A stretch of DNA of 46,628 nucleotides from a virus. Taxonomy: Duplodnaviria > Heunggongvirae > Uroviricota > Caudoviricetes. The notes under the pieces were generated by a model, which was not told where the DNA came from, made no database searches, and was given only the letters and a program-made list of their open reading frames with translations. The stretch spans positions 1 to 46,628 of IMG/VR virus record IMGVR_UViG_3300003155_000137; one strand, given 5' to 3'. Every line of letters begins with the position of its first letter. Within the stretch, counting starts at the first letter, position 1. A program made the translations under genes and the position numbers. Of the stretch, positions 1-34,477 are shown piece by piece.

Positions 1-20
1 GGGGGGGGGGGGGGGGGGGG
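1..20. other. poly-G run at contig start, probable sequencing artefact
   Basis: 20 consecutive G at the very start of the window; typical of two-colour chemistry dark cycles. Confidence 0.8.
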
Positions 21-42
21 GTGAACCGAAAGGGAAAACGAC

Positions 43-1408: not shown

Positions 1409-2995
1409 ATGGCCAACACACAGAAGATTATGACGCTGTCGGATACGGCGAACCTCATCGCCAAGGTCCACAGGAACGCCAACGGCGGTGCGCGACCCGA
1501 ATACGACACCGCATCAGGTGAATACACCAACCTACGCGCGTACTGGGACCAGCACCGCGACGGCAAGGTCTACGGGGTGCAGTTCCCCAAGTATACGTTC
1601 AGTACGTCGCCCGAGGGCGTCAAGACGCGCGACAACGCGGGCCTTGTGGCCGAGATCAGCACCAACATCACGGCGGGACGCGACGACTACGCGACGCTCA
1701 ACGCATTCAGGGTGTTCGACGTCAACGCGACCGTTGACGACGACGGCAAGCCCCACGTCACGGCAATCAGCGGCCTCGACGACAGGTTTGCCAACGACGG
1801 CACCAACGGCGACGTCTGGGTGATGGGGTGCCCCTGCTACTATCGCGTCGAGGAGACCGACACCCACTACGAGTTCCTCTGGTCCGACACCCACTATGAC
1901 GGCTACATCCCCGCCCCCGGCGTCCTCCTGCCCTCCGGCGACGAACGCGACACCATGCTCTACGCAAAGTACATGGCGGACGTCGACGAGAGCTACAAGC
2001 CCATGAGCGTCTCCGGTCGGTTCCCGAGCATTGAGTTCGGTTCGCAGAACAACATCATCGACCGCGCCAAGCTCAAGGGCAACGGATATGCCGGTCGCTG
2101 CTCCGGAGACACGTTCTATGTCCAGATGATGCTGATGCTGAAGTACGCCACCAAGAACTCCAACGTCCTCGGAGGCTGTTTCGAGTACAATCCGCAGACC
2201 AAGCTCACGATGGCCGAGAGCAGTGTCACCCGCGTGGTCATCCCCGCAGCCAATGCGGGTTCGTGGGAAATCGGGTCTACGGTCAACGTGGGAACCGACG
2301 CCGAGCGTAACAACGCCGGCAACTACAGCGCGGCGAGATTCCGCATCATCCTGAGCAAGGATTCCGTGGACGGCGAGAACACCGCCCTCAACCTCGACGG
2401 CGACCCGTTCGACACCACAACGGACTGCTACGTGTCGTCGATGCCTTGGAAGACCGGGTTCACCGACAAGATTCTCGGTCACGACGGCAGGGCGAACGAG
2501 GCCAATCCGATGCGCCAGCCCGTCAGACTTCAGGGCATCGAGCTGTTCAACGGCATCCTCGAGACCGCCGCCGACCTCATCTGCAACGCGACGAAGGTCA
2601 CCGGGGATTCCGGAGACGTCGGCCACAACGAGCTCTACCGCGTCTTCGACATCGCCAACGCATCCAAGGACAGCGTCAGCAGCTACACCAAGCTCGGTGA
2701 GTGTACGCCGCGCGACTCCGACACCAACGACACATGGCAGTACTCGCAGGACTTCATCCTGTCCAACGGCGTCTTCATCCCGCAGGGCTTCGGAGCCACG
2801 AGCACCACCGGCCTGTGCGACGCCGTCTACGCCAACCCCCTCACCTCACAGGGTCTCCGCGAGGTCCGTTTCTTCGGCCATCTCTGGAGCTGGGCGCCCT
2901 GCGGTGTGTGGTACGTGTACCTGTACAGCGGCCTTGGGGACCGCTGGTGGAACACCGGGGGTCGCCTATCGGCGCTCGGCCGCACGAAGGCGTAG
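1409..2995 (+). CDS. DGR target protein; receptor-binding tail fibre with predicted C-terminal CLec-type fold
   Basis: Good RBS (AAGGAG); last ~36 codons form the VR matching TR at all non-adenine positions; C-terminal RFFG..........W..GGRLS pattern typical of DGR targets. Confidence 0.9.
   Translation: MANTQKIMTLSDTANLIAKVHRNANGGARPEYDTASGEYTNLRAYWDQHRDGKVYGVQFPKYTFSTSPEGVKTRDNAGLVAEISTNITAGRDDYATLNAFRVFDVNATVDDDGKPHVTAISGLDDRFANDGTNGDVWVMGCPCYYRVEETDTHYEFLWSDTHYDGYIPAPGVLLPSGDERDTMLYAKYMADVDESYKPMSVSGRFPSIEFGSQNNIIDRAKLKGNGYAGRCSGDTFYVQMMLMLKYATKNSNVLGGCFEYNPQTKLTMAESSVTRVVIPAANAGSWEIGSTVNVGTDAERNNAGNYSAARFRIILSKDSVDGENTALNLDGDPFDTTTDCYVSSMPWKTGFTDKILGHDGRANEANPMRQPVRLQGIELFNGILETAADLICNATKVTGDSGDVGHNELYRVFDIANASKDSVSSYTKLGECTPRDSDTNDTWQYSQDFILSNGVFIPQGFGATSTTGLCDAVYANPLTSQGLREVRFFGHLWSWAPCGVWYVYLYSGLGDRWWNTGGRLSALGRTKA
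2863..2970 (+). repeat. DGR variable repeat (VR)
   Basis: 108-nt ungapped match to 3136-3243 with 14 mismatches, every one opposite an A in TR. Confidence 0.97.
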
Positions 2996-3022
2996 CCGAA
3001 GTGCGGTGAGGGTGAGCGTAGC

Positions 3023-3041
3023 GAGGGGGCAAAGCCCCCTC
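3023..3041 (+). promoter_or_regulatory. GC-rich hairpin downstream of VR (DGR target-recognition hairpin)
   Basis: GAGGGGGC-AAA-GCCCCCTC perfect 8-bp stem ~50 nt after VR, as in characterised DGRs. Confidence 0.8.
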
Positions 3042-3100
3042 CGAGCGCCGATGCGTTCACTTTCACCGCATTCACCGGCGTTTCGCACCCACCAATGGTA

Positions 3101-3108
3101 TATAATTG
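3101..3108 (+). promoter_or_regulatory. -10 box for TR/RT transcript
   Basis: TATAATTG 28 nt upstream of TR in a non-coding gap. Confidence 0.65.
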
Positions 3109-3135
3109 AAAATCGGGATTTGCGGAGGTGTCCCC

Positions 3136-3243
3136 GGTCCGTTTCTTCGGCAATCTCAGGAACAGGGCGAACTACGGTGTGTGGTACGTGAACCTGAACA
3201 ACGACCTTGGGAACCGCAGGTGGAACACCGGGGGTCGCCAATC
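3136..3243 (+). ncRNA. DGR template repeat (TR)
   Basis: Adenine-rich copy of VR (25 A, mostly in AAC codons), lying between target gene and RT. Confidence 0.97.
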
Positions 3244-3407
3244 TTAACAACCCCATCATAATTTATCAACTCCGCAACTACCCTCCGCCATGCCAGCGAG
3301 AGGGCACGCCACGACCATGTCGAAAATGAAACCGAGCATGCGGCTGGTAGACGACCCCGTCCAGCACCGTCGAACGTCGCTATAGTCCAAGATAGGGGAC
3401 AAGCCCT

Positions 3408-4544
3408 ATGAAGACCTACTGCCGCGATGTCCACATCGCCACCCCGAGCTTCGTGAGGAAGGCGATCGACAAGTACCTCAAGGGCAAGCGTTCAAGGCGC
3501 GATGTCCAGAGGTTCCTGGAGAAGAACCCGGACCTCGACGCGCTGGCCGAGAGGATCGCCTCGGAGATACGCGACGGCAGATTTCGTCATACGAAGATCA
3601 GGTACTTCAATCGCATCGAACCCATCAGCGGCAAGCACAGGATCATAGGCAGAGAGACAACACGCCACCAGATATACAATTATGTCGCCGTCACAGCGTT
3701 GCAGTCGGTGTTCGACGCCAAGATCGGAAGGTGGCAGACCGCGAGCATACCGGGAAGAGGAACCATCGACGCCCGCAAGGCCATCAAGAGATGGACGAGG
3801 GGACGCGATTGCAAATACTTCGTCAAGCTCGATGTCCGCAAGTACTATCCGTCGATAGACAGGGACACCCTGAAGGCCATTCTCGCCAAGGATGTGAGGA
3901 ACCCACAGCTTCTTAGGCTGGTGTATCATCTCATAGATCAGTATCAGGGGGATAACGGGCTCAACATAGGCAGCTATCTCAGCCAATGGCTCGCCAACTA
4001 CTATCTGTCGCCCGCCTACCACTTCTGCGAGAGCGGACTGACGACGGAACGTCACTGCCGCAACGGCGAGACGAAGACCAGAAGGCTCATCACCCATTTC
4101 CTGTTTTACATGGACGATATTCTTCTGGTCGGAAAATCCAAGAAGGACCTCAAGATGGCGGCGAGACGCCTGTCCAGGTTCCTCAAGGAGACGCTCAAGG
4201 TCGAGGTGCATCCTGAGTGGAGCGTCAAGTGGCTTGAACTCGAACCCATCAACATGGTGGGCTACGCATTCCGCAAGCATGGTCGCGTGAACATCCGCTC
4301 AGGCGTATTCCTGCGTGCGAGAAGGAACTTCAGGAGGATGGCGAAGCGTCCTTCCAGCATACTTCTGGCGAGACGTTGCGTGAGTTACTTCGGGTACTTC
4401 AAACACAGCGACAGCGTGATGTACAGGCGTCGCAACGACATCGACGGCATCATGCGCAAGGCCAGAAGACTGGTCAGTGTCTACAGTAGAAAGGAAAACA
4501 CATGTTGCAGGATGTCTCCAGCACCAGCCCTCTCTCCAAGGTAG
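3408..4544 (+). CDS. DGR reverse transcriptase
   Basis: KLDVRKYYPSI, GLNIGSYLSQWLANYYL and FYMDDILL motifs; 378 aa; adjacent to TR. Confidence 0.95.
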   Translation: MKTYCRDVHIATPSFVRKAIDKYLKGKRSRRDVQRFLEKNPDLDALAERIASEIRDGRFRHTKIRYFNRIEPISGKHRIIGRETTRHQIYNYVAVTALQSVFDAKIGRWQTASIPGRGTIDARKAIKRWTRGRDCKYFVKLDVRKYYPSIDRDTLKAILAKDVRNPQLLRLVYHLIDQYQGDNGLNIGSYLSQWLANYYLSPAYHFCESGLTTERHCRNGETKTRRLITHFLFYMDDILLVGKSKKDLKMAARRLSRFLKETLKVEVHPEWSVKWLELEPINMVGYAFRKHGRVNIRSGVFLRARRNFRRMAKRPSSILLARRCVSYFGYFKHSDSVMYRRRNDIDGIMRKARRLVSVYSRKENTCCRMSPAPALSPR

Positions 4545-4852
4545 CCTATCACCGTCGTGGTGATGGACTCGCGGATGTCTACATCCGCACCAGCATCTCG
4601 TCGCGCACCATCCCGGCCCACGACGGAATGCCCGAATCGGTGGAATACACCGCCAAGGAGGCATACATCGTATCGGCGTTGACCGAGGATGAGGTCAGTG
4701 CGCAGGCGGACGACCTTCTCAAGGCATACATCGTTGAGCATACGCCGGATTCCGAGCGCATCGCGGCGCTTGAGCAGTCGAACCTCGACCTGTCCGAGAT
4801 GGTCGCTTCGCTTTACGTCGCCATGACGTCCATGAACACGAAGGAGGCATGA
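4502..4852 (+). CDS. hypothetical protein, tail-fibre-cluster type
   Basis: 116-aa ORF with phage-like codon usage and C-terminal coiled segment (RIAALEQSNLDLSEMVASLY) typical of proteins preceding CD1375/XkdX-like genes. Confidence 0.55.
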   Translation: MLQDVSSTSPLSKVAYHRRGDGLADVYIRTSISSRTIPAHDGMPESVEYTAKEAYIVSALTEDEVSAQADDLLKAYIVEHTPDSERIAALEQSNLDLSEMVASLYVAMTSMNTKEA

Positions 4853-4853
4853 T

Positions 4854-4979
4854 ATGGATGAGGTGATGGCAAGAATCTACGCCCGTCTGGTGATTGCTGG
4901 AAGGCAGTCAATCGACGAGGTTCCCGAGAAGCTCCGCGAGCTCACCAAGAAGGCCGTGGAGCAGATGTCGATCTTCTAA
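4854..4979 (+). CDS. CD1375-family small protein (not in ORF track)
   Basis: MDEVMARIYARLVIAGRQSIDEVPEKLRELTKKAVEQMSIF, RBS AAGGAGG; matches the IY.RL...G..SIDEVP.KLRE pattern. Confidence 0.7.
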   Translation: MDEVMARIYARLVIAGRQSIDEVPEKLRELTKKAVEQMSIF

Positions 4980-4991
4980 AAGGAGGAAGTC

Positions 4992-5321
4992 ATGACAGTG
5001 ATTGAAGCCGTAGCGGCCATCGTCGCCGTGGTAATCATCCCGTTCCTTGTGAACGCCATAAAGACCAACGCGATGACCGGCAACGTCGCCAGATGGGTGG
5101 CGATGATCGTGTCGGTCATCGGAGGAATCATCGTCGGCCTGATAGGCGGTGTGCCGACGACCCCGGAGGCATGGCTCACCACGGTGTTCGCCATCGTCGG
5201 CGGTGTGCAGTTCGCCTATTCGGCGTTCAAGTCCGTCGGCATCACGAATGCGTGGCTTGAAGCGTTGCTGAATGTGAACACCGGCGACGTCGATGCTGGT
5301 CAAACCGAAGACGCCGACTGA
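4992..5321 (+). CDS. putative holin
   Basis: RBS AAGGAGG; 109 aa with three hydrophobic stretches and acidic C-tail at end of tail cluster. Confidence 0.55.
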   Translation: MTVIEAVAAIVAVVIIPFLVNAIKTNAMTGNVARWVAMIVSVIGGIIVGLIGGVPTTPEAWLTTVFAIVGGVQFAYSAFKSVGITNAWLEALLNVNTGDVDAGQTEDAD

Positions 5322-5334
5322 CAGACAATAAAAG

Positions 5335-5379
5335 GGAGCGCCGCTTCAGGGACCACCATCGGATTCCGGGCGGCGCTCC
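5335..5379. terminator. stem-loop after holin
   Basis: GGAGCGCCGC (5335-5344) / GCGGCGCTCC (5370-5379) 10-bp inverted repeat, A-run on the left. Confidence 0.5.
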
Positions 5380-5391
5380 TTCCGTTTGGAC

Positions 5392-5399
5392 TATAATTG
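5392..5399 (+). promoter_or_regulatory. -10 box upstream of terminase-fragment operon
   Basis: TATAATTG followed by GTTGTGTGGCG, similar to 25377 and 36734. Confidence 0.6.
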
Positions 5400-5669
5400 G
5401 TTGTGTGGCGGATGCCATACGGTACGTCGGAACATCCGGGGAGCCAGAGCTGGGTGTGTATTGATGATGAAAGTCCCGCAGGAAATCCGACGACGATGGG
5501 CATCCGCCGCATTCATCGTAGGATGCATGGGTGGTGATGGGATGTCCGACGTCATGGTACGGCAGGAGGGCTACGACCTGCCCATTGCCGACAGCGGAAT
5601 GTTCGTCCACATAAATTCCGGCATGACCCCGGACGAGGCCATCGCCCCCATTCCGTCGACGGAGTCGGA

Positions 5670-6665
5670 ATGAGCTGGTGGCGCGTCGTATCCCGGAGCC
5701 CCCTGGAATCATCTCCGGCAAGGCGTCTGGAGGCCCATAGGCACGTCGGCTTCTCAAGGCCGGTGCAATACGCACCCGACCCCAATGGATGCCTGGAGGA
5801 GCGGATACAGGCGGCGGAGGAGCGGAGCGACCCGACCATGTTCAGGGTGGAGAACAGGGCGCAGTTCGTGGAGGGCATCAACCCGTACTTCGACGCCGAT
5901 GCCGTGGCCCGTGTGTTCGAGCCGTGGGGCGGAGCGCCCCTTGAGGCCCGGACGTCCGGAAGGCTCGGTGCCGAATACCAGATGCATATCGACCCGGCCT
6001 TGGTCAACGACATGTTCTCGGTCATGGTGGCGCATTCCGAGCAGGGAGACCCGGATGAGTTCGGGATATCCTACAGGCACCTTGTCGTCGACTGGTACAA
6101 GGTGTACAGGCCCGAGGATTTCCCTGACGGAAGGATAGTGTACTCCAGCGTCCTGGGTGACATCAGGCAGATGATTACGGCGTTCAGGCCGACCGTCGTC
6201 TCCTGCGACCAGTTCAACTCGGCCTACGTCACCGAGAACCTTGGCGATTACGTCAGATCCAGGAACATGCCGACGCAGGTGTATGAGGAGACGGCAACAG
6301 GACAGAAGAACTCATCGATGTATGAGACGCTCAAGTTCTCCATCAACACCGGTCTCGTGCACTCGTACAAGGACGACCTGAACCGTGGAGGCGATTGGAG
6401 ATGCCTCCTCCACGCGATGCTCGATTCGGTGCAACTCGTCAACGGAAAGATCGACAAACCGAGATCCAAGGAGCTCGGGCACCTCGACCTCGTCGACTGC
6501 CTCGCCGTGCTGTGCTCAAGGATGCTCGGAGACCAGTCCGGCGCAAGACGCGACCTTCTGACGCCCGTGTCGTTCATCGACAACGAGAGCGTCATGCGCG
6601 AACGCGAAGCGTCCGCACGATTCGACACAACATCGGCCTTCGCAAACATCTATGGGAGGCGCTGA
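5670..6665 (+). CDS. terminase large subunit, C-terminal nuclease half only
   Basis: EERSDPTMFRVENRAQF, YQMHIDPA..DMFSVMVAH, VVDWYKVYRPEDFP, VSCDQFNS and HLDLVDCLAV motifs resemble the RNase H-like half of Bxz1-type TerL; no Walker A/B present. Confidence 0.75.
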   Translation: MSWWRVVSRSPLESSPARRLEAHRHVGFSRPVQYAPDPNGCLEERIQAAEERSDPTMFRVENRAQFVEGINPYFDADAVARVFEPWGGAPLEARTSGRLGAEYQMHIDPALVNDMFSVMVAHSEQGDPDEFGISYRHLVVDWYKVYRPEDFPDGRIVYSSVLGDIRQMITAFRPTVVSCDQFNSAYVTENLGDYVRSRNMPTQVYEETATGQKNSSMYETLKFSINTGLVHSYKDDLNRGGDWRCLLHAMLDSVQLVNGKIDKPRSKELGHLDLVDCLAVLCSRMLGDQSGARRDLLTPVSFIDNESVMREREASARFDTTSAFANIYGRR

Positions 6666-6772
6666 CCGTCATCCGAGGATCAGTCTTCCCGACCGGACGC
6701 TCTGATTGTCTATGAACCCCTTGCCATCCGATGCACACAACGCCGGAAACACGTCGTCGCCGTTCGACGTGG

Positions 6773-7351
6773 TCACTCCCTGTACACGAACGGTTGCGAC
6801 TTCATGTTGTGCGACGTCAGGGTCGGTGCCAGTTCCGTCATGCGGCCGGCGTTCGTCTGCGTGTCCGCCTGACACATCACACGACCGTCCTGCCCCCCCC
6901 CATTGGCCGGATCGACCCAGACCAGCGGGCCGGGAGCTATCGGCTCAACGTCGTCCACGGTCGGTGGACGCCAAGGATGCACGCGCCGGTTATGTGTTCC
7001 GAACTCGACATCCACTATGCCATCGGCTATCCATGCCATCACGGGAACCGCCATCGAGTTACCGGTGGCCTTGTACCGCAGACCGTCCGGCGGATGATCC
7101 TTGCCCTTATACGGTATGTCGGTGTGTCCGTCGGGGAACCCCTGCAATCGCTCGGTCTCCAACGGGGTGAGTCGTCTCACCGTCAGCCTCGGGTCCATCC
7201 AATCACCTCCACAGTGTCGTCCATGCCCCCCCCCATCGGTGAAGAGGGTCTGCACGTTGCTCGTGCTGAGCGTTGCGCTCAATTCATGCTGTACGAGCGC
7301 TCCCTTGCCGCCTCCGGCCTTGCCGCACCTCACGAGCAACGTGTCGGCCAT
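6773..7351 (-). CDS. C5 cytosine methyltransferase, C-terminal part (motifs IX-X)
   Basis: VRRLTPLETERLQGFPD and RYKATGNSMAVPVM; own RBS GGAAGGA. Confidence 0.85.
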   Translation of the reverse strand: MADTLLVRCGKAGGGKGALVQHELSATLSTSNVQTLFTDGGGHGRHCGGDWMDPRLTVRRLTPLETERLQGFPDGHTDIPYKGKDHPPDGLRYKATGNSMAVPVMAWIADGIVDVEFGTHNRRVHPWRPPTVDDVEPIAPGPLVWVDPANGGGQDGRVMCQADTQTNAGRMTELAPTLTSHNMKSQPFVYRE

Positions 7352-7364
7352 TTCAGCATCCTTC

Positions 7365-7469
7365 CTACGCCGGCCACACGGCCGGCACCTTCTCCGTCTG
7401 CAACGTCGGTGACGTGTCGCCGATCGAGAGTCCGCAACCGGAACTGTTCTGCCTCCCGAACGCCATCAC
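7365..7469 (-). CDS. 34-aa mini-ORF resembling the methyltransferase variable-region repeats
   Basis: GAAAGG RBS 7 nt before GTG; MAFGRQNSSGCGLSIGDTSPTLQTEKVPAV resembles the PTL...AV repeats in both flanking ORFs. Confidence 0.45.
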   Translation of the reverse strand: MMAFGRQNSSGCGLSIGDTSPTLQTEKVPAVWPA

Positions 7470-7473
7470 ACGG

Positions 7474-8787
7474 TCACCTTTCACGACATCTTTCGGGTGG
7501 GGTTGGCATGAGCGCGACCGCGTGCCTGTCCCTCGTGTTGAGGGTGTACGCCCCGTTGTCGTCGGGGTCGGCGTAGCCGCGCCCTCCGGGTCCGTTGCCG
7601 GGGTCGCGGTCGATGGCGTTCCCCTGGATCTCCACGAGCCGTCCGCCGATGTCGGACAGTCCGTCATCCAGTCCACGGGGGGGGGTCTGGACGGAATCGG
7701 ACATGACCATCGGGACGTTGTTTCCGCCTGTTCCGGCGTGCGCCGTGATGGTCATCGACACGTCGGGCGTGTCCGACACCTTGGCCCTGCCGTCCTGCTG
7801 ATGGAAGTCCAATGCGACGTAGCTCTGCTGTTTCATGCCGGGATTCTCGGCCAACGCTCCGGGGACATCCATGACGGGAACCTCGTTGCGCTGATTCTGT
7901 GCGAACGCCACTGCGGTCGATACGGAAGTGTCCAGAGTGTTCATCACGTCGTCACGTTTGATTCCGAAACCGTTGGAGCCAGTGTTCGCCGTCTCGCACA
8001 GATAGATGCTCTGCTGGTTCTGCCCTGAGTTCGATCTCGCGGACAGCGCCGGGAAGACGCCATCGGAGGAATGCACGCGACGACTCTGGTTCTCGCCCGT
8101 GGTCAGGCATCCTCCGTCGTCGGTGTCTCCGTCTCTTCCTCCAGGACCGCTATCTGATTCTCCAGAGCGGCGCGAAGATTCTCCGGCAAGGGCTTTCCTC
8201 TTGTCTCGGCTCGACGAATAATCCCACGGCATGCCTTCGCGCTCAAATAATACTTCCGAGGAACGCATGGTTCCAAGGCTTCCGACAAGGAACAGACGCT
8301 CGCGTCGCTGGGCCACACCGAAGAACTGCGCATCCAGTACTCTCCATGCCAGACCATACCCGAGCGCGTCCATTTCGGACAGGAGTTGTCGGAAAGCGCC
8401 CCCGTGCTCGCTTGAGAGCGCGCCCGGGACGTTCTCCCAGACGAACCATCGAGGACGCACCTCACGAACGCATCGAATGTACTCGAACATGAGACCTGAT
8501 TCACCTTTGAGACCCTCCCTTTTTCCGGCCGTAGAGAATGACTGACATGGGCTACCTCCGAAAACGACGTCCACCTTGTCCACATACGGAGTCCAATCGA
8601 CCTTGGTGATGTCGCCAAGATTCGGGACATCAGGCCAATGGTACGCAAGAACCTCGGATGGGAACCTGTCGATCTCGCAGAAGGCCACCGGTTCCCAAGG
8701 CCCTCCATCAAGCGCCACCGAGACCGCCTCGATTCCGCTGAACAAGCTGATGTATCTCAATTTCCTGTTTTCCATGATGTCCATCAT
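7474..8787 (-). CDS. C5 cytosine methyltransferase, N-terminal part (motifs I-VIII plus repeats)
   Basis: SLFSGI, GGSPCQSFS, WENVPG, QRRERLFLVG. Confidence 0.92.
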   Translation of the reverse strand: MMDIMENRKLRYISLFSGIEAVSVALDGGPWEPVAFCEIDRFPSEVLAYHWPDVPNLGDITKVDWTPYVDKVDVVFGGSPCQSFSTAGKREGLKGESGLMFEYIRCVREVRPRWFVWENVPGALSSEHGGAFRQLLSEMDALGYGLAWRVLDAQFFGVAQRRERLFLVGSLGTMRSSEVLFEREGMPWDYSSSRDKRKALAGESSRRSGESDSGPGGRDGDTDDGGCLTTGENQSRRVHSSDGVFPALSARSNSGQNQQSIYLCETANTGSNGFGIKRDDVMNTLDTSVSTAVAFAQNQRNEVPVMDVPGALAENPGMKQQSYVALDFHQQDGRAKVSDTPDVSMTITAHAGTGGNNVPMVMSDSVQTPPRGLDDGLSDIGGRLVEIQGNAIDRDPGNGPGGRGYADPDDNGAYTLNTRDRHAVALMPTPPERCRER

Positions 8788-25485: not shown

Positions 25486-27849
25486 TCAGCGGGTCTCCTC
25501 CCACCAGTCGCGGGTGGTGCCATCCGCCAACGTGACATGGCCGGTCTCGCCGCTCATGTGCTTGACGCGGTGCGAGATCTCCTCGTGACGGCCGTGCACC
25601 ATCGGACGCTGCACCGGGTTGCCCAGGTAGCCGCAGGTGCGCTTGGTCACGTTGCACTTGTCCGGGTCGGAGTTGCCGCACTCGGGGCACTTGAAGCCCT
25701 CGTCGGTGGGTTCGAAGTCGCCCTGGAACCCGCAGACGAAGCAGTGGTCGATCGGGGTGTTGGTGCCCAGGTAGCCGATGCCGATGTTGTAGGCGTAATC
25801 CCACACGGCTTCGAGCGCCTTCGGATTGTCCTGCATACAGGGGAACTCGCAGTAGTTGATGAAGCCGCCGGAGGCGTAATACGGGAAGTTCTTCTCGAAG
25901 TCCAGTTTCTCGAACGGGGTCGGCTGCAACCACACCGGATAGTGGAACGAGTTGGTGTAGAAGTCGTGGTCGGTCACGCCATCGACGACGCCGAAGCGTT
26001 CGCGGTCCATGCGGTTGAAGCGGTCGGTCAGTGACTCCGCAGGGGTTGAATACACCGAGTAGTGGTAGCCCTCATCACTCTCCCACCGCTTGCACAGCTC
26101 GTTCATGCGACGAACGATGGATAGGGCGAAACCCTTGCCATCCTCATCCCAATGGTGGTCGGTGATCCAGTCCTTGCCGTAGAAGACTGCGGTCGTCTCG
26201 TACAGCCCTATGTAGCCGAGCGATATGGTGGCCCTGCCGTCCCTGAAGAGGCTGTCCACGCCGTCTCCGGGGTCGAGACGCCCTATGGCACCGTAGCGGT
26301 ACATGCTCGGGGCGTTGACCGGAGTGGCCTGTTTGCAACGCATGATGCGGAACTGTAACGCTTGGTGCGCCACGTCCATGCGTTCGTCGAACAGTCTCCA
26401 GAACCGCTCCTTGTCGCCGTGCGACTCCAAGGCGATTCTGGGGAGGTTCACGCTCACCACACCGAGATTCAGACGCCCGTCCTCGACGTCCTCGCCGGTC
26501 TCGGGGTCGGCCCAAGCCTGAAGGAAGGAACGGCAGCCCATCGGGGCCTTGAAGGAGCCGGTGATTCTGACGATGTTCTCATAGAAGACGATGTCCGGAT
26601 ACATGCGCTTGGTGGAGCACTCAAGCGCCAACTGCTTCATGTCGTAGTTCGGGTCGCCGGGATCGGCGTTGATGCCGTGCCTGATTGTGAACACGAGCTT
26701 CGGGAAGATGGCGGTCTGATGATCGGAGCCGAGACCCATGATTCTGTTGAGGAATATCGCCCTCTGAATCTCCCTTGCGAACCACGAGGTTCCCAGGCCG
26801 AAGCCGACGGTAACGAACGGGGTCTGACCGTTGGAGACGCGGTTGGAGTTGATCTGGTACTCCATGGTCTGCATGGCGTCGTAGATGGCCTTGCGGGTCC
26901 TGAGCTTCGCATACACCTCCCTGATGTCGTCAAGCTCGTCATCGTTATGGTGGAACGGCGCGTCCTCTGATTCCGGTATGTCGGGGCGGCCATCAGTGAA
27001 ATGGAGCGCCTTGCGCTCGTTGCGCTTCAGCGATTCAACGATCTCACGGGCGACCCGAACGTCCATGTCATCGGGGATGACGGCATGTGCGTCCTCAAGG
27101 GCCTTCTCGTAGTCGAGGCGCGCGTAACGCTCCAGCATCTCGTCGGCGCGGTTCACGGTCTGGCCTCCGTACTGGCAACCGGCGATGTCCTTGATGATCT
27201 GCGTGATCTGCGTGGCGGCGGTGCCGATGGACTTCGGGGAGTCCATCATCGCGTTGCCCAGCGCGAAGCCGTGGGCGAGCATGTCGCCGAAGTTCGGCAG
27301 CGAGCAGTTCGTCTCGGCGGTGAACGGGGAGTAGTCGAGGTCGTGGAAGTGGATGTCGCCCTTCCTGTGGGCGTTGGCGACCGCCGTCGGGAGCATGTTG
27401 AGCGCCATCGCCTTGGACACCGTGCCGGCCAGCAGGTCGCGCTGGGTGGCGTAGACGTTGGAGTCCTTGTTGGCGTTCTCGTGGGCTATGGACTCATCGC
27501 GGTTCATGAATCGGCTGACGGCCTCGTTCACGTCGGTCGACCTCGCGCGGTCGATGTCCCTGTTCAGGCGGTACTGCGTGTAGGCCCTGGCCACATCATA
27601 CAGATGGTTGTCGATCAGCGCGTGCTCGACGAGGTTCTGGATGTCCTCTATCCTGATGGGTTCGGTGAACCTGCCCGACGCCTCCGACTCGACCTCGCCG
27701 GACATGTCGTCGATCATCCTTGATTCCTGCGGTCCGATCTCCCTGCCGAGATCGCGGAACGCCGACGATATCGCTCTCCTTATGTTGTCCCTGTCGAAGT
27801 CGACGATACGACCGTCGCGCTTCTCGACGCGCATGGCCTCTTCCGTCAT
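25486..27849 (-). CDS. nrdD: anaerobic (class III) ribonucleoside-triphosphate reductase
   Basis: N-terminal ATP cone (VEKRDG..VDFD...I..AI), IHFHDLDY, MGCRSFL, KRTCGYLG glycyl-radical motif, CFVC..CPEC zinc site; RBS GAAAGGA. Confidence 0.97.
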   Translation of the reverse strand: MTEEAMRVEKRDGRIVDFDRDNIRRAISSAFRDLGREIGPQESRMIDDMSGEVESEASGRFTEPIRIEDIQNLVEHALIDNHLYDVARAYTQYRLNRDIDRARSTDVNEAVSRFMNRDESIAHENANKDSNVYATQRDLLAGTVSKAMALNMLPTAVANAHRKGDIHFHDLDYSPFTAETNCSLPNFGDMLAHGFALGNAMMDSPKSIGTAATQITQIIKDIAGCQYGGQTVNRADEMLERYARLDYEKALEDAHAVIPDDMDVRVAREIVESLKRNERKALHFTDGRPDIPESEDAPFHHNDDELDDIREVYAKLRTRKAIYDAMQTMEYQINSNRVSNGQTPFVTVGFGLGTSWFAREIQRAIFLNRIMGLGSDHQTAIFPKLVFTIRHGINADPGDPNYDMKQLALECSTKRMYPDIVFYENIVRITGSFKAPMGCRSFLQAWADPETGEDVEDGRLNLGVVSVNLPRIALESHGDKERFWRLFDERMDVAHQALQFRIMRCKQATPVNAPSMYRYGAIGRLDPGDGVDSLFRDGRATISLGYIGLYETTAVFYGKDWITDHHWDEDGKGFALSIVRRMNELCKRWESDEGYHYSVYSTPAESLTDRFNRMDRERFGVVDGVTDHDFYTNSFHYPVWLQPTPFEKLDFEKNFPYYASGGFINYCEFPCMQDNPKALEAVWDYAYNIGIGYLGTNTPIDHCFVCGFQGDFEPTDEGFKCPECGNSDPDKCNVTKRTCGYLGNPVQRPMVHGRHEEISHRVKHMSGETGHVTLADGTTRDWWEETR

Positions 27850-27892
27850 ATGTCGTCCTTTCATTCGGTTCTGTTGTTGTCGGTAGAACCCA

Positions 27893-27965
27893 ATCTTATA
27901 TCCACCGAGGCACATCCGAAGTCGACCGGACGCATTCCGATGATGCCGACGACGGACTAGAATTG
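27893..27965. promoter_or_regulatory. divergent -10 boxes for nrdD and the large virion gene
   Basis: TAAGATTG on minus (27898-27891) and TAGAATTG on plus (27958-27965). Confidence 0.5.
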
Positions 27966-28007
27966 GTGTATGAGTGCCCAGTCAATGGGGCGCGTGAACC
28001 GGTCGTC

Positions 28008-31000
28008 ATGAGCGAAGGGGTGTTTGTTTTGGCCGACATCTTCATCGGGGATACCTACGACTCACAATATTACGATGCGGTCGTGACACAGACCGACAAG
28101 GAGCGGCTGAAGACCAGGACGCAGGAGTGGATGTCGCGCCCGAGGGAGTCCGCGAGCTCGGTCGTCGAGATCCTCACATACGAGTTCGCGGACAGAGCGC
28201 CCATATCATCCATCGCGTTCGACGTCCTGTCCGTCGGTGCCGAGTATGAGATGTGGTACTACGATTCGGCCGGGACAAGGCTTCCGCTGCTGAGGGATGA
28301 CTACAACCAGATTCACTTCGTCGTGGAATCCGAAGAGGATTGGACGAGATGGCAGCACTGGGAGTTCCAGTGCATGGCGTGCGTGGCGACGAAGCTCGAG
28401 CTGAGGATGCGTCGCATCGACGACGATCTCGCCCCCGACAACGAGTACTCGCTCGGCGTGAGGAAGATGGCCATCAAGCGCCAGATCAATACGAGGGTGG
28501 ACGCGGCGCTGCCGTTGCAGGACACCACCGACATCCTCGGCAACATCGTGTCCAAGACCGTGTACGACTGGGATGCCAGATTCATGGCCGATGGCGAGGA
28601 CAACACGTTCTGGAAGTGCGAGCCGCAGATATCCCAGGATGCGGTCGTCTGCCTGTATCTCGACATCAGGGACAAATACGGCGAGCCGCAGTACTTCGAC
28701 TCGATCAACATCGACCCAGTCTACGCCGGTTCGCAGATGAACGTGTACTATTCCAACGACACCACGATGGGTGACCGCGTGCCGTCGCACTCATCGTATC
28801 CGGCGGCATACTCCGGATGCGAGTACACCACGGACAGCGCCACGGGCTGGAGGGACGGGGAGAATCCGCTCATCTCAACCGACCTGACGGCGGCCGAGAT
28901 GGACCTCGACGGAAGCTGGATGATAGGCGTGAGCTGGCTTCCGATGTCGCAGCCCTCCGGAACCACGACCATAGCGTCGATAGGCAGGAACTTCAGGCTC
29001 GACCTGAACGCCGACGATGGAAGACTCGAGTTCTGGTATCAGCATGACGGCGGGCTCGACCACATCGACATCGACATGCCGTGCGACGTCAAATACAGGC
29101 GCGGACTGCCGCAGGTGGACAACGTCGATTCCGAGATTCGCGTCGAGTTCGGCGTGGACAAAGGCGACGACGAACTCCTGCACATCAGGGTGAGGATGCT
29201 CAACTGGTACACGACGACCGGAGAGCTGATAGACCCGACCACCGACGACAAGCCGACCCACGAGGCCGGCGAGATCATCGACGACGAGACCGTGGTCAAG
29301 ACGGTCAGGACGGCCATGCAGATTTCCGCCATAGTTGACGGGGTGAAGAGCGGCGACGTGTCGGGCGCGTCGGTGAGGACGTTGTCGGATGGGATCGACA
29401 GCTCCACCGAGCTGGTGGTGGCCGGGCATTCATCCGTTGAGATACCGTTGTCGATACCGGAAGACATCGACCCGGTGTCGGGCGGCTATGACATCGACGT
29501 CGAACTGAACTACCGTACCGACGACGCCTATCTCGGAGGCGGCGAGCTCGTCATAGCCAATGGCGACGAGATCAAGAACGGATACACCTCATGGTGGTAC
29601 GGCACGCAGGGTGAGTCGCCATCAAGGATGAACATCGGCACCGACGGTCAGGTCACCAACTGGTTCCAGAACCCGGAGTTCTCGGCATCCGGCTCGTGGC
29701 AGCCGGACGAGACCACCGGAAACGGCACGGCCACGCTCACGGGCGGCTCGCTCAGGCTGAATGGGATGATCCGCGTCAGAAGCGTCGAGGCGTTGCCGTA
29801 TCAGGTCCCCGGAGGGCGGTACTACGTGTTTTCTGCGGTTCCCGAGTTCTCCGGCGTCGATTCGCTGTACAAGAGCTACTCGCTCTTCGTCTATGACGGG
29901 AGGAGCGAGACCTATGTGGCGTTCGCCGACGGTATGCCGGTTTCCGGCGGGAGGGTCGAACTGAGATTCTTCATGCCGGACGACCCATCGCTCATATCAT
30001 TGGGATTCGTCGGAGGCTCGGAATCCGGTGACGTTGTCACATGGCGCGACCCCATGCTGTGCGAGGCGGACGATTGGGCCACGCTTGAGAGTCACGGTGT
30101 CGACTACTTCTCCGGCGACACATACAGGCGGACCGGTGACGTCATAGAGCGCTACAGTCAGGAGCTCAACCCGAATCCGAGGAACAGAGAGGACCTTCCG
30201 CTCATCGGTGAGGTCGTGCATCCGTCGTTCTGCCAGAAACGCTCGTTCAACTCGGACATCGTCAAGATAAATCCGTATCTCAATACCTACGACATACCGC
30301 AGATCGACTGGTGGATACCGGCCAAGGGCGGCAGCTCGTTCACGTTCTCGTTCTGGTGCATATCGAGGAAGGCGTGGTCGCAGCTTCAGCCGGTCATGCT
30401 CGACACCAAGGGCAACATGTACTGGCCCGACCGTTACCAGTACTCGGAGGGCGAGGGTGGATGGCGGCTCGTGTACGCCCGCGTCTCCATACCATCCGAC
30501 CACGAGCCGGACATGATGACCTTCGGAATCTACGAAAGGGCGACCGATGCGTTCTCCTATCTTGGGGAGATGCATGTCTACGATAACTCGGCCGCGTTCG
30601 AGGAGCCGGAGCCATACACCGTGGCGTCGGCGTCAAGGAGATTCTCCGCATCGCTGTCGACCGGTTCGCTGTCGGGACTCAAGGTGCTGGTGAGGAACTC
30701 CGACGCCAATCCCATCTACGTCGAATCATGCTCGGTCAGGGCCGTTGCGAGACGTGTGTCGGACCTGCCGGACGCGACCGCATCGTTCTCGTGGACCCAC
30801 GGAACGCTGAGGAACGTCGTGGTCAAGCAGGAGGGCATCCCGGACGAGGACAGGGACAGGTTCCTTCAGAATCCCGACATCTACACGTCACCGGACTCAT
30901 ACGACGTCTCATCGACATTGTTCAACGCCCTGCTGTACGGAAGGTTCTCGTATGAGCAGACGCTGAGGGGAGGGGTGGCCGACTCCGCATTCGACGCCAA

Positions 31001-33296
31001 GGTGTGGACCCCGATACTGACCGGTGCCACCCTCGAACGCACCAGATACACGATGCCGACACCGACCCAGGCTAGGTTCGTCAAGCTGGAGTTCTCCCAG
31101 CTCACGCCACAGCAGTACCCGATAGAGTCGCCGTACATATCGTCCACCTACCGCGTGTTCCCCGTGGAGCAGACACGGGAGATGCTCCAGCGGGCCAACG
31201 CCGACGAGACTGTGAGGAACGGACGACAGACCGTCGACTCGTATTACGGCAACACGCTCACCGCAAGGCAGAGCGCCTATTATGCATCGACCGACCTCGG
31301 CAACCCGACGCGCTCGGGCGACAGGAGGTCGCTGTACGACAATCCGGACGCCGAGGTGCTGACGTCCAGCGACACCGGCGACTACGACGCCAGGCTGTCG
31401 GGGACGTCCATCGCCGACGCCACGAGGACGGAGACCACGTCATCGACATTGCTCAACACGGTGGGCACATCGACCGCAGTGGCGTCGTCGGGGGCGGGGC
31501 TGTCCAGATTGTCCACGGCGGCGCAGGAGAACGCCAGATACATGATATACACCGCCCAGGCGTCCGAGACGCTGATCGCCATTGCCAGACGGTACGATCT
31601 GGCCGACTGGAGACTCATACGTCAGGTCGACGGATACGTGGACGACAAGTCGGACAGGACGGCGATATCGGGAAGGGTCCCCGGATACTGGGTGCTCCCC
31701 GGACAGCAGCTCCTCATACCGGTCGGTCAGGTCAGGCAGGTGACGGGAACCTCGAAGATCGACACCATCGACAGGGTGGCGACCAAGCAACCGCTCACGT
31801 CCATCGTGGACATCAGGACGCCGATACCGACGCTCACCACGAACGGCCCGAAGTACTTCAGCCAGACATCCGTCCACAGCTACGAGTACCGCACGGAGAG
31901 AAGAACGCAGTCCATAGCGTACTTCGTCGCAATCCGCGAGCTTTCCGTCGACATCGTCGACTACTTGCAGGAGCGCGACAACGTGTCGTGGAACTTCTAC
32001 TCGATGGCGATGCCGGTATGGCATCTCGACGGCGGATACCTGACGACCCAGGAGGTGTTCGTCCCCGACCTCTCCACCGGAAGGGGCGTGGCGGTCGCCG
32101 AGACCGACGTGATGCATTCGCAGTCCTACTACAGGACGTGCAAGTACATTTCCGTCAACCGCGACAGCCTGATGAACAGGACGTACTTCTCGTTCGAGGG
32201 CGAGGCGTGGCACGGCCCCGAATACTGGGATCAGCACCCCGAGCTGAACTGCGTGTGGGATGACTCGACGCCGGACAACCCCGACGTCTATGAGGACAAT
32301 GGCGGAGCATGGAACTCCAGAAGATTCGCATGGGGAGACACATGGAGCGGCACGATAGTCCCCGGACACACCGACGACGTATGGTATGACGGCGAACTCG
32401 TCAAGCACATCGTCGTGAACCCCGAGGACAGGGTCTTCGACGCCGACGGCAACCAGCAGCCGTATGTGTATCACCTCGGTGAAATCTATGTTCCCAGCAA
32501 CTCGCTTGCTGTGCTCGGCGCGTCACTGTTCTCGCTGAAGACGGCGAACCCGAACAGGCCGGACCATCATCTTGAGACGCGGCTCCAGCTCGTTTCCGGA
32601 AGGTGGTCGAACGACCCGATGATAGACGAGGTGGTCGGGTTCGACGACACCAAGATCGGCATATGGCAGAACGTGACCACGTCGAGACACCACCTCCTCG
32701 ACATGCAGTACAAGTGCGACGTGTACCTGTACTTCAACGACTTCGAGCGGCTCGACCTGTATGCAAAGAGCATGTATCTTGAGCTTGGAACCATGCGCAT
32801 CCTCCAGAAGAACAACGTCAACCTCGACTGGGAGGACGTCACGTCGGCCGTCGGCAGGGCGGATTCCGAATACACCTTCAGGACGACCGGTCACGACCTC
32901 CAGCTCCGCGTCGAGATGTACGACCCTCAGGACTGGTTCAGCCAGATCATCGTCGTCCCGATTTACATTCCGCAGGAGGATGCTGTTGATACGACGTCAT
33001 CAATTGTCCACGACGTATCGCTTGTGCAGAATGATGGTGCCGGGTCGGCGATACCGGTATCAGGATATGTGGGCAACAGCTTCTCAGTAGGTGTCAGAGT
33101 CCACTATGCTACGGGGGCCGAATCAGGAATCATCGTTGACGGCGCGCACTTCTACTCATCCGACGAATCCGTCGTCACATTCTCAGTGTCAGGAAACGTT
33201 ACGACGATGAGATTTATTGGAGTCGGCGACGCAGAGGTGTGGGGGGAGTATGGGGGCATAACAAGCGAACGGGTGTCCATGCATGTAACCCATTAG
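28008..33296 (+). CDS. large multidomain virion (tail/baseplate-type) protein; start 28008 (ATG) or 28029 (TTG)
   Basis: ~1750 aa, beta-sandwich/CBM-like segments, LysM-like segment (YTAQASETLIAIARRY...LPGQQLLIP) and C-terminal Ig-like domain. Confidence 0.6.
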   Translation: MSEGVFVLADIFIGDTYDSQYYDAVVTQTDKERLKTRTQEWMSRPRESASSVVEILTYEFADRAPISSIAFDVLSVGAEYEMWYYDSAGTRLPLLRDDYNQIHFVVESEEDWTRWQHWEFQCMACVATKLELRMRRIDDDLAPDNEYSLGVRKMAIKRQINTRVDAALPLQDTTDILGNIVSKTVYDWDARFMADGEDNTFWKCEPQISQDAVVCLYLDIRDKYGEPQYFDSINIDPVYAGSQMNVYYSNDTTMGDRVPSHSSYPAAYSGCEYTTDSATGWRDGENPLISTDLTAAEMDLDGSWMIGVSWLPMSQPSGTTTIASIGRNFRLDLNADDGRLEFWYQHDGGLDHIDIDMPCDVKYRRGLPQVDNVDSEIRVEFGVDKGDDELLHIRVRMLNWYTTTGELIDPTTDDKPTHEAGEIIDDETVVKTVRTAMQISAIVDGVKSGDVSGASVRTLSDGIDSSTELVVAGHSSVEIPLSIPEDIDPVSGGYDIDVELNYRTDDAYLGGGELVIANGDEIKNGYTSWWYGTQGESPSRMNIGTDGQVTNWFQNPEFSASGSWQPDETTGNGTATLTGGSLRLNGMIRVRSVEALPYQVPGGRYYVFSAVPEFSGVDSLYKSYSLFVYDGRSETYVAFADGMPVSGGRVELRFFMPDDPSLISLGFVGGSESGDVVTWRDPMLCEADDWATLESHGVDYFSGDTYRRTGDVIERYSQELNPNPRNREDLPLIGEVVHPSFCQKRSFNSDIVKINPYLNTYDIPQIDWWIPAKGGSSFTFSFWCISRKAWSQLQPVMLDTKGNMYWPDRYQYSEGEGGWRLVYARVSIPSDHEPDMMTFGIYERATDAFSYLGEMHVYDNSAAFEEPEPYTVASASRRFSASLSTGSLSGLKVLVRNSDANPIYVESCSVRAVARRVSDLPDATASFSWTHGTLRNVVVKQEGIPDEDRDRFLQNPDIYTSPDSYDVSSTLFNALLYGRFSYEQTLRGGVADSAFDAKVWTPILTGATLERTRYTMPTPTQARFVKLEFSQLTPQQYPIESPYISSTYRVFPVEQTREMLQRANADETVRNGRQTVDSYYGNTLTARQSAYYASTDLGNPTRSGDRRSLYDNPDAEVLTSSDTGDYDARLSGTSIADATRTETTSSTLLNTVGTSTAVASSGAGLSRLSTAAQENARYMIYTAQASETLIAIARRYDLADWRLIRQVDGYVDDKSDRTAISGRVPGYWVLPGQQLLIPVGQVRQVTGTSKIDTIDRVATKQPLTSIVDIRTPIPTLTTNGPKYFSQTSVHSYEYRTERRTQSIAYFVAIRELSVDIVDYLQERDNVSWNFYSMAMPVWHLDGGYLTTQEVFVPDLSTGRGVAVAETDVMHSQSYYRTCKYISVNRDSLMNRTYFSFEGEAWHGPEYWDQHPELNCVWDDSTPDNPDVYEDNGGAWNSRRFAWGDTWSGTIVPGHTDDVWYDGELVKHIVVNPEDRVFDADGNQQPYVYHLGEIYVPSNSLAVLGASLFSLKTANPNRPDHHLETRLQLVSGRWSNDPMIDEVVGFDDTKIGIWQNVTTSRHHLLDMQYKCDVYLYFNDFERLDLYAKSMYLELGTMRILQKNNVNLDWEDVTSAVGRADSEYTFRTTGHDLQLRVEMYDPQDWFSQIIVVPIYIPQEDAVDTTSSIVHDVSLVQNDGAGSAIPVSGYVGNSFSVGVRVHYATGAESGIIVDGAHFYSSDESVVTFSVSGNVTTMRFIGVGDAEVWGEYGGITSERVSMHVTH

Positions 33297-34441: not shown

Positions 34442-34477
34442 AAAATCAATCATACCAAAACTGCCACCACAGTGGCA

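What the first reader, a model, noticed from the sequence alone, without database searches (positions are those of the whole stretch)
5392..6665. Orphan nuclease half of terminase large subunit with its own promoter, far from any ATPase half
The 331-aa ORF matches only the C-terminal RNase H-like part of a Bxz1-type TerL, beginning about where the ATPase domain ends. Upstream are a holin, a stem-loop, a TATAAT box and two short coupled ORFs (TGATG and ATGA overlaps), not an ATPase. The frame is intact with both conserved Asp motifs, so it looks selected. Options: a genuinely two-gene terminase with unlinked halves, a trans-assembled gene, or a displaced 3' half left by an element like the one at 33-34.8 kb. 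Adjacent split TerL genes are known in some actinophages; an unlinked pair would be unusual.
Basis: partly seen in the sequence, partly recalled or inferred. Interest (0 to 1): 0.75.

Follow-up and report, generated by a model that had tools for sequence, protein, structure and literature searches.

The report
Unlinked two-gene phage large terminase
In this 137-kb gut phage and its relatives, the DNA-cutting half of the genome-packaging enzyme (large terminase) is a separate, conserved gene about 62 kb from the motor (ATPase) half, with no intein or intron found to rejoin them, so an enzyme that is normally one chain appears to work here as two subunits.

Summary
Window 5670-6665(+) is an intact 331-aa ORF. 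It has no Pfam or PHROG match, but it is homologous to the C-terminal part of Bixzunavirus (Bxz1-type) terminase, and its model matches solved TerL nuclease domains. It is under strong purifying selection (dN/dS 0.044).

The window has no ATPase half, but the genome does. The genome is one 137,417-bp contig, and the ATPase half lies at C1:68,221-70,790 on the same strand, about 62 kb away. I found no second TerL.

The unlinked layout is conserved. Two complete IMG/VR relatives keep the halves 45-70 kb apart. Public data hold about 24 clusters of nuclease-only proteins (~330 aa) and about 30 of ATPase-only proteins (~400-440 aa). More distant relatives are fused.

At the break there are no intein motifs and no intron RNA. 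The split forms instead carry a conserved 47-aa ATPase tail and a 15-aa nuclease head. I infer that these dock the two subunits non-covalently; this is not shown.

The ATPase gene itself is broken by a split intein with a free-standing endonuclease, and by a conserved 8-nt insert that contains a stop codon. The scan had already reported both on this genome (e1-1676768). It has also reported other two-gene TerLs on other DNA.

The claim of an own promoter is unproven.

The parts
4992..5321 (+). Holin-like membrane protein (109 aa) at the end of the upstream late block
   Evidence: Weak PHROG holin match, phrog_1299, E 9.6e-4. In Bixzunavirus the fused terminase gene also follows the lysis genes.
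5333..5381 (+). Strong RNA hairpin followed by UUCCGUUU; possible terminator between the holin gene and the nuclease unit
   Evidence: MFE -34.1 kcal/mol, z -4.35, 0 of 200 shuffles fold as well. The simple terminator scan does not call it, because the loop is too large.
5391..5396 (+). TATAAT box; promoter status unproven
   Evidence: Seen in the sequence. No matching -35 element: the scan finds no + strand sigma-70 site. Conserved only in the 98% relative.
5464..5673 (+). Small ORF (69 aa) with a lipobox-like IVGC; its TGA stop overlaps the nuclease ATG (ATGA)
   Evidence: No family hit. Shortened in L018 and decayed in L019/L020, so it is probably not part of the terminase system.
5661..5664 (+). 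GGAG Shine-Dalgarno, 5 nt before the nuclease ATG
   Evidence: Sequence. The 87% relative has AGGAG before its GTG start. This supports independent initiation of translation.
5670..5714 (+). Nuclease 'head' (aa 1-15, MSWWRVV...), found only in nuclease-only proteins; proposed docking strand
   Evidence: Consensus MxxWKVVxxxP in 22 nuclease-only proteins, also present in the 43% relative P0079. Absent from fused relatives. Fused Tonenili TerL aligns only from aa 16. Low pLDDT when folded alone.
5670..6665 (+). TerL nuclease subunit (331 aa): interdomain-linker helices plus an RNase H-like nuclease core

Best explanation
The ORF encodes the nuclease subunit of a large terminase that this phage lineage encodes as two unlinked genes.

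Shown: it is the only TerL-type nuclease in the genome. The only TerL-type ATPase is encoded about 62 kb away on the same strand (C1:68,221-70,790). Both genes have their own conserved start and stop. The split sits in the interdomain linker. The same unlinked layout occurs in complete related genomes.

Inferred: the two proteins are translated separately and assemble non-covalently on the portal and DNA. Docking would use two elements that only the split forms have. One is a 47-aa C-terminal tail on the ATPase (PTYxSGWSPK, a beta-hairpin, then an acidic end). The other is a 15-aa N-terminal head on the nuclease (MxxW[KR]V[VI]). The ATPase ring would then translocate DNA and the separate nuclease would make the initiating and terminating cuts.

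In this particular genome the ATPase must itself first be rebuilt. This needs protein trans-splicing by a split intein at Walker B, and reading across an 8-nt insert that contains a stop codon.
For: Nuclease identity: tblastn to Bixzunavirus terminase, the fused relative P0036, and fold matches to solved TerL nucleases.

ATPase half elsewhere: tblastn with P0036 places aa 8-227 at C1:68266-68958, aa 226-301 at 70311-70622 and aa 306-544 at 5760-6512. PF03354 hits only 68515-68934, and PF03237, PF04466 and PF20441 hit nothing.

Conservation: G001 (116 kb) has the nuclease at 14.8-15.6 kb and a 437-aa ATPase-only gene at 84.4-85.3 kb. G003 (103 kb) has them at 73.2-73.9 kb and 25.9-28.4 kb. There are about 24 nuclease-only clusters and about 30 ATPase-only clusters of 384-442 aa. 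Contig lengths link P0003 with P0070 (132,373 bp) and P0014 with P0045 (113,630 bp).

Selection: dN/dS 0.044.

No misassembly: the independent contig L018 has the same gene order.

Split-specific ends: the tail is conserved in all ATPase-only proteins and the head in the nuclease-only proteins. Fused relatives join ...SW.xYE... to ...P.V.PDPNG with 6-12 residues. In fused Tonenili, the match to the ATPase query ends at aa 356 and the match to the nuclease query starts at aa 16, two codons apart and in the same frame.

Separate translation: an SD and start codon are conserved.

No rejoining element: Rfam finds nothing at either locus. Pfam finds no Hint or intein domain in the ATPase-only or nuclease-only proteins, although it does detect the real intein in ORF1.
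Against: Physical association of the two proteins is not shown, and the docking role of the tail and head is inference only. The ATPase model was unusable (pLDDT 37), so only sequence supports its fold: weak PF03354 matches in 15 of 28 members and tblastn to annotated terminases. There are no expression or proteomic data. From my own knowledge, and not checked here: separately expressed halves of T4 gp17 are reported not to support packaging. If so, a two-chain TerL needs some compensating feature, and that feature has not been demonstrated. Two fused proteins (P0036, P0080) fall inside the split clade in the tree, which complicates a simple history of a single split.
Confidence: 0.75

Rival explanations
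1. The two halves are joined covalently after translation by a split intein at the ATPase/nuclease boundary, as in the AceL-TerL / GOS-TerL type, where unlinked TerL halves are trans-spliced.
For: The same genome uses a split intein inside the ATPase gene. The scan reported unlinked TerL halves joined by atypically split inteins in two other genomes. The ATPase tail has a beta-hairpin with a GDxV motif that loosely resembles the first strands of a Hint fold.
Against: The extra sequence is only 47 + 15 aa, far below the size of a mini-intein. No Cys/Ser/Thr nucleophile is conserved at the start of the tail: the Ser of GWSPK is T, K or R in relatives. No HN, or Asn/Gln followed by Cys/Ser/Thr, is conserved at the end of the head. 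Pfam finds no Hint or Intein_splicing match in these proteins, although it does detect the genuine intein nearby.
Confidence: 0.05
2. The 331-aa protein has left the terminase and works as a stand-alone RNase H-like or resolvase-type nuclease. The ATPase-only protein would then package DNA with another nuclease, for example the HNH-type protein at 40371-42698.
For: There is no direct evidence of association. The gene lies in a different module from the ATPase. A large zinc-finger/HNH protein follows the portal region.
Against: It is the orthologue of the nuclease domain of fused TerLs, with the catalytic acidic residues invariant. Identities of the two halves fall in parallel across relatives (87/85, 61/about 48, 51/48%). 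The ATPase-only proteins have no other nuclease domain.
Confidence: 0.08
3. The mRNAs are joined by trans-splicing, or the genes are joined by a DNA rearrangement during infection.
For: None beyond the unlinked layout. Introns are common in the TerL genes of other large gut phages (PMC12880540).
Against: No Rfam family, including group I and II introns, matches within about 1 kb of either break at E<=1. The ATPase ORF ends in a conserved tail and stop, and the nuclease ORF starts with a conserved SD, Met and head. About 62 kb of phage genes lie between the two.
Confidence: 0.03
4. Assembly artefact, or a decaying gene fragment.
For: This is a metagenome-assembled contig with poly-G ends.
Against: An independent assembly from another sample has the same order. 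dN/dS is 0.044. The layout is conserved in the relatives classed as having terminal repeats.
Confidence: 0.01

Closest known systems
Bixzunavirus (Bxz1-like, cluster C) mycobacteriophage terminase, e.g. phage Iota gene 250, phage Tonenili
   Same: Nearest annotated relatives of both halves (35% and about 30% identity). The gene follows the lysis genes, as the nuclease gene does here. The genomes are rich in inteins (bioRxiv 10.1101/2025.01.02.630785).
   Different: There it is one gene (1007 aa in Iota), with the ATPase and nuclease parts contiguous and in one frame. It has no 47-aa tail or 15-aa head.
Canonical single-chain TerL (T4 gp17, Sf6 gp2, HK97, D6E, P74-26/G20c)
   Same: The model of the 331-aa protein has the same RNase H-like nuclease fold. 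The partner gene has Walker A/B ATPase motifs.
   Different: The two domains are separate polypeptides encoded about 62 kb apart.
AceL-TerL / GOS-TerL atypically split inteins (unlinked TerL halves joined by protein trans-splicing)
   Same: TerL halves encoded far apart in uncultured phages.
   Different: Here there are no intein motifs at the ATPase/nuclease boundary. The only intein lies inside the ATPase domain, at Walker B.
'Fractured genes': split intein plus free-standing homing endonuclease (Dassa et al. 2009, PMC2677866)
   Same: The ATPase gene of this genome has exactly this layout: N-extein with the intein N half, then an endonuclease gene, then the intein C half with the C-extein.
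   Different: This concerns the partner gene, not the ORF in question. The endonuclease is a C2H2 zinc-finger/TnsA-like type rather than the Vsr-like type.
Other two-gene TerLs noted by this scan (e1-3286506, e1-4443250, e1-3297453, e1-1434960, e1-955657)
   Same: The split is at the interdomain linker, giving conserved ATPase-only and nuclease-only genes.
   Different: In several of those notes the halves are separated only by a cassette of about 3 kb. Here they lie 45-70 kb apart, in different modules. I did not check those notes.

Membership tests
TerL nuclease domain (RNase H-like) | RNase H-like fold superposable on solved TerL nuclease domains | tested here: met
   AF2 model pLDDT 81. 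Foldseek top hits are 6z6d, 5oee, 5m1o, 4idh, 3cpe and 5tge at probability 1.00; TM-score normalised by target length about 0.7 for isolated nuclease domains.
TerL nuclease domain (RNase H-like) | Conserved acidic metal-binding residues | tested here: met
   D108, D180, D273 and D276 invariant, and E206 nearly invariant, in 27 sequences including a fused TerL. I did not map these residue by residue onto a solved active site.
TerL nuclease domain (RNase H-like) | Match to curated TerL nuclease profiles (Pfam PF20441 / Terminase_6C; PHROGs) | tested here: not met
   No Pfam or PHROG hit. A PDB profile search finds nothing. The lineage is too divergent for these profiles.
TerL nuclease domain (RNase H-like) | Sequence homology to annotated terminases | tested here: met
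   224 phage records, all annotated terminase where listed, E down to 5e-38. Most of the 266 clusters at E<1e-10 are 600-1100-aa proteins matched in their C-terminal part.
Canonical one-chain TerL | ATPase and nuclease domains in one polypeptide | tested here: not met
   Separate ORFs about 62 kb apart, and likewise in G001 and G003.
Split-intein-joined TerL (AceL/GOS-TerL type) | N-intein (Cys/Ser1, blocks A and B) at the end of the ATPase half | tested here: not met
   The tail is 47 aa, has no conserved nucleophile and gives no Hint or intein Pfam hit.
Split-intein-joined TerL (AceL/GOS-TerL type) | C-intein ending in HN plus Cys/Ser/Thr at the start of the nuclease half | tested here: not met
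   The head is 15 aa, has no HN and no conserved +1 nucleophile, and gives no Pfam hit.
Fractured gene (Dassa 2009), applied to the partner ATPase gene | Split-intein halves on separate ORFs with a free-standing endonuclease gene between them | tested here: met
   L001 ORF 4222-5238 reads ...VVDF|CLGEDS...TDEHRF. ORF 5235-6218 is C2H2 plus TnsA-like. The next ORF ends ...THN|CFD. G003 has the same layout.
Intron-split or trans-spliced gene | Group I/II intron RNA at the break points | tested here: not met
   Rfam E<=1: no match in window 4400-7000 or in L001 3900-8200.
T4 gene 60-type translational bypass (for the 8-nt insert in the ATPase gene) | Take-off codon followed by a stop, then a matching landing codon that restores the frame | tested here: inconclusive
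   GAT TAG CG GAC GAG here and in L017; GAC TAG CA GAA GAG in L014/L015; GAC TAA CA GAA GAG in L016. Skipping 8 nt gives CFDE[AV]FF, as in the in-frame P0056 and the intein-free P0061 and P0070. No conserved stem-loop. Translation was not tested.

The most novel reading that the evidence does not exclude
This phage clade builds its packaging enzyme from separately translated pieces, using different joining methods in one enzyme. The motor and the nuclease would be true separate subunits, held together by a lineage-specific beta-hairpin tail and beta-strand head. In some members the motor itself is also rebuilt by protein trans-splicing and a ribosomal stop-hop. If so, covalent coupling of translocation and cutting is dispensable for a tailed-phage terminase, and the nuclease:ATPase ratio and timing could be set independently from different operons.
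Probability: 0.5. Interest if true: 0.75.

Novelty: new variant of a known kind. Interest (0 to 1): 0.62.

Why it matters
TerL is the hallmark single-chain enzyme of tailed phages and herpesviruses, and models of packaging assume that the ATPase and the nuclease are tethered. This lineage has kept them as separate genes in different parts of the genome for a long time, with no splicing element found. That makes it a natural system for asking three things: which domain binds the portal, how cutting is coupled to head filling, and whether the tether matters at all.

There is also a practical point. Annotation and marker-gene pipelines that expect one TerL will call these genomes incomplete or pick up only half a marker. 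Neither half matches Pfam above its curated cut-off, and the nuclease half has no PHROG match.

Tried and rejected
- Pfam and PHROG scans of the ORF gave nothing. A profile search against PDB sequences gave nothing for the nuclease or for the ATPase.
- tblastn with the fused relative found no ATPase in the window. It was found only in the whole genome.
- The AF2 model of the ATPase-only protein was unusable (pLDDT 37), so I made no fold search or tail-structure claim beyond a weakly confident hairpin.
No binding test was done.
I checked for misassembly with an independent assembly instead.
- The ATPase tail was searched against GenBank phages with no match, so no deposited phage shows this split form.
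- The promoter scan did not support the TATAAT box.
- RNA folds around the 8-nt insert showed no significant or conserved structure.
- TAG read as a sense codon is rejected: the read-through frame has no homology.
- A simple sequencing error at the 8-nt insert is rejected: it is present in four further contigs (L014-L017) from other samples, with three sequence variants in all.
- The literature searches found split terL only through group I introns or inteins. None described an unlinked split without an intein, but the library is incomplete.

Full report
**1. What is there**

Window 5670-6665(+) is an intact 331-aa ORF. A GGAG lies 5 nt before its ATG. Pfam and PHROGs give no match, and a profile built from its homologues finds nothing among PDB sequences. 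It is nevertheless not an orphan:
- The 5.8-billion-protein collection holds 36 homologues. Most are 327-350 aa long, with identities from 98% down to about 48%.
- An independent assembly from another sample (L018, a 58.7-kb contig) carries a 98%-identical copy. Against it, dN = 0.012 and dS = 0.273, so dN/dS = 0.044.

**2. It is a TerL nuclease domain**

- One homologue, P0036 (573 aa), is a fused protein with a Walker A motif (GRRAGKT) and a Walker B motif. The ORF aligns to its residues 306-544.
- tblastn against GenBank phages finds 224 records, almost all Bixzunavirus (Bxz1-like) mycobacteriophages and Gordonia or Rhodococcus phages. All matches lie under genes annotated 'terminase' (35% identity, E 5e-38).
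- In phage Iota that gene is a single 3,024-bp ORF that follows lysin A, a membrane protein and lysin B. The match lies in its C-terminal third.
- An exhaustive HMMER search gives 266 clusters at E<1e-10. Most are proteins of 600-1,100 aa matched from about residue 350 onwards.
- An AlphaFold model built from the alignment (pLDDT 81) matches the solved TerLs of HK97, D6E, G20c, Sf6, P74-26 and T4 at Foldseek probability 1.00. TM-score normalised by target length is about 0.7 for isolated nuclease domains.
- D108, D180, D273 and D276 are invariant.

**3. Where the ATPase half is**

The window holds none. The window's genome is one contig of 137,417 bp. Its two ends share about 43 nt, and CheckV rates it 100% complete. 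tblastn with P0036 places its residues as follows, all on the + strand:
- aa 8-227 at C1:68,266-68,958
- aa 226-301 at C1:70,311-70,622
- aa 306-544 at 5,760-6,512

So the motor half lies about 62 kb from the nuclease gene, or about 72 kb going the other way round the circle. PF03354 hits only that same ATPase locus, and PF03237, PF04466 and PF20441 hit nothing. I therefore found no second or fused TerL.

**4. The unlinked layout is conserved**

- IMG/VR holds three relatives with about 60% nuclease identity.
- In G001 (116 kb, terminal repeats, complete) the nuclease gene is at 14.8-15.6 kb. An uninterrupted 437-aa ATPase-only gene is at 84.4-85.3 kb.
- In G003 (103 kb, complete) the two are at 73.2-73.9 kb and 25.9-28.4 kb.
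- A search with the G001 ATPase returns about 30 clusters of ATPase-only proteins of 384-442 aa.
- Matching contig lengths pair P0003 with P0070 (132,373 bp) and P0014 with P0045 (113,630 bp).
- Identities of the two halves fall in parallel across relatives.
- The nuclease gene's neighbours differ between relatives: DGR and holin genes here and in L018, tail-fibre genes in G001 and in the 87% relatives. In every case it is a stand-alone gene at the end of a rightward late block.

**5. What is at the break**

Fused relatives join ...SW.xYE... to ...P.V.PDPNG... with 6-12 residues. In fused Tonenili the match to the ATPase-only query ends at residue 356. The match to the nuclease query starts at residue 16, two codons further on and in the same frame.

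The split forms therefore have two additions:
- A 47-aa tail on the ATPase. It has PTYxSGWSPK, then a predicted beta-hairpin (the only part of the failed ATPase model with pLDDT above 55), then an acidic end. It is conserved in all ATPase-only proteins.
- A 15-aa head on the nuclease (MxxW[KR]V[VI]xxxP). It is conserved down to 43% identity and disordered in the model of the nuclease alone.

Neither addition looks like an intein half:
- Together they are only 62 aa.
- No nucleophile is conserved at the start of the tail, and no HN plus Cys/Ser/Thr at the end of the head.
- Pfam finds no Hint or intein signal in these proteins, although it does detect the genuine intein in the neighbouring ORF.

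Rfam finds no intron or any other RNA family at either locus. The tail occurs in no GenBank phage.

My reading is that the two proteins are separate subunits and that the tail and head dock them. That step is inference.

**6. The partner gene is itself in pieces**

This was first reported by the scan as e1-1676768; I found it independently here before reading that note. In locus L001 (C1:64,000-76,000):
- ORF 4222-5238 encodes the ATPase up to ...RGRPVVDF, followed by an intein N half (CLGEDS...TDEHRF).
- ORF 5235-6218 is a C2H2 zinc-finger/TnsA-like endonuclease, a paralogue of window 33293-34486.
- A short ORF ends ...FIANGLKTHN|CFD and then a TAG stop.
- The rest of the ATPase (DEAFFSLAGN...) continues in another frame.

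Intein-free close relatives read ...VVDY[VT]FDEAFF... (P0061, P0070). P0056 has the same intein in frame, as HN|CFDEVFF. The genome here therefore carries an extra 8 nt after CFD.

The same 8-nt insert is present in four further contigs (L014-L017) from other samples:
- L017: identical to the genome here.
- L014 and L015: TAGCAGAA.
- L016: TAACAGAA, where the stop is kept as a stop while the alternative frame changes residue.

It is therefore conserved, not a sequencing error. A hop of +8 (GAY to GAM) restores CFDE exactly. A -1 shift would insert three residues into Walker B. No conserved RNA structure was found. The mechanism is untested.

**7. History**

In a quick maximum-likelihood tree of nuclease domains, a clade with SH-aLRT 99 holds 20 nuclease-only proteins. 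It also holds the two fused proteins P0036 and P0080, nested inside. The sister branch and all rows outside are mostly fused. The split is therefore derived and old. Either a re-fusion or more than one split happened; the tree does not decide, and its rooting is arbitrary.

**8. Upstream signals**

- The hairpin at 5333-5381 is strong (-34 kcal/mol, z -4.35) and could terminate the holin transcript.
- TATAAT at 5391-5396 has no -35 partner, and the scan does not call it.
- Only one small upstream ORF looks plausible (5464-5673, lipobox-like, ATGA overlap with the nuclease start). It decays in the 87% relatives.
- 'Own promoter' therefore remains a hypothesis.

**9. Comparison with what is known**

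- Split terL genes in the literature searched here are interrupted by group I introns or inteins and stay contiguous (PMC12880540, PMC7156551, bioRxiv 10.1101/2025.01.02.630785). Split inteins with a free-standing endonuclease are the 'fractured genes' of Dassa et al. (PMC2677866).
- From my own knowledge, unlinked TerL halves joined by atypically split inteins (AceL/GOS-TerL) are known.
- The scan's own notes list several two-gene TerLs in other lineages, several with only about 3 kb between the halves, and two unlinked cases with split inteins. I did not check those notes.
- What is distinctive here is the combination: the halves are unlinked by 45-70 kb, no intein or intron is detectable at the domain boundary, and both chains carry conserved lineage-specific ends.

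I rate this a new variant of a known kind, with interest 0.62.

Noticed in passing
L001:6304-6317 (= C1:70303-70316), outside the window: An 8-nt insert containing a stop codon (TAGCGGAC) sits just after the intein C-terminal junction of the ATPase gene. It is conserved as TAGCAGAA and TAACAGAA in contigs from other samples. Skipping it restores the Walker B sequence CFDE. The scan already reported this as e1-1676768.
   Followed up: partly
window 1409-4544: Likely diversity-generating retroelement. The reverse transcriptase (3408-4544, RVT_1, E 3e-15) carries the IGSYLSQ motif typical of DGR enzymes. It lies downstream of a 528-aa tail-type protein (1409-2995, phrog_17147 / tail protein). I did not look for template and variable repeats.
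   Followed up: no
window 6773-8787 (- strand): A C-5 cytosine DNA methylase appears in two ORFs: 7474-8787 holds the N-terminal motifs and 6773-7351 the C-terminal motifs. It is also fragmented in the independent contig L018 (511 + 49 + 106 aa). This could be another interrupted or recoded gene.
   Followed up: no
window 33293-34807: A low-GC insert encodes a five-finger C2H2 plus TnsA-like endonuclease on the - strand. It is followed by a short ORF whose end duplicates the C-terminal domain of the 1858-aa protein (27720-33296). It is a paralogue of the endonuclease that splits the ATPase intein. Covered by e1-5418019 and e1-1676769.
   Followed up: partly
window 5464-5673: A small ORF (69 aa) has a signal-peptide-like start and a lipobox-like IVGC between the holin and the nuclease gene. 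Its stop overlaps the nuclease ATG. It is not conserved in the 87% relatives.
   Followed up: partly
window 40371-42698: A 775-aa protein with C2H2 zinc fingers, a double zinc ribbon and a homing/HNH endonuclease PHROG match lies just downstream of the portal (37546-39096) and a phrog_2791 protein.
   Followed up: no
proteins P0036, P0080 (tree): Two fused TerLs that lack the tail and head fall inside the otherwise nuclease-only clade (SH-aLRT 98-99). This implies either a re-fusion or several independent splits.
   Followed up: partly
window 1-21 and C1:137360-137417: The contig ends overlap by about 43 nt. The G run next to the overlap has 21 Gs at one end and 13 at the other, so the homopolymer is either unstable or poorly sequenced.
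   Followed up: no
proteins P0025-P0034: A sister group of nuclease-only proteins (40-44% identity). Several have an unrelated N-terminal extension of about 95 aa instead of the 15-aa head, possibly a different docking or joining device.
   Followed up: no
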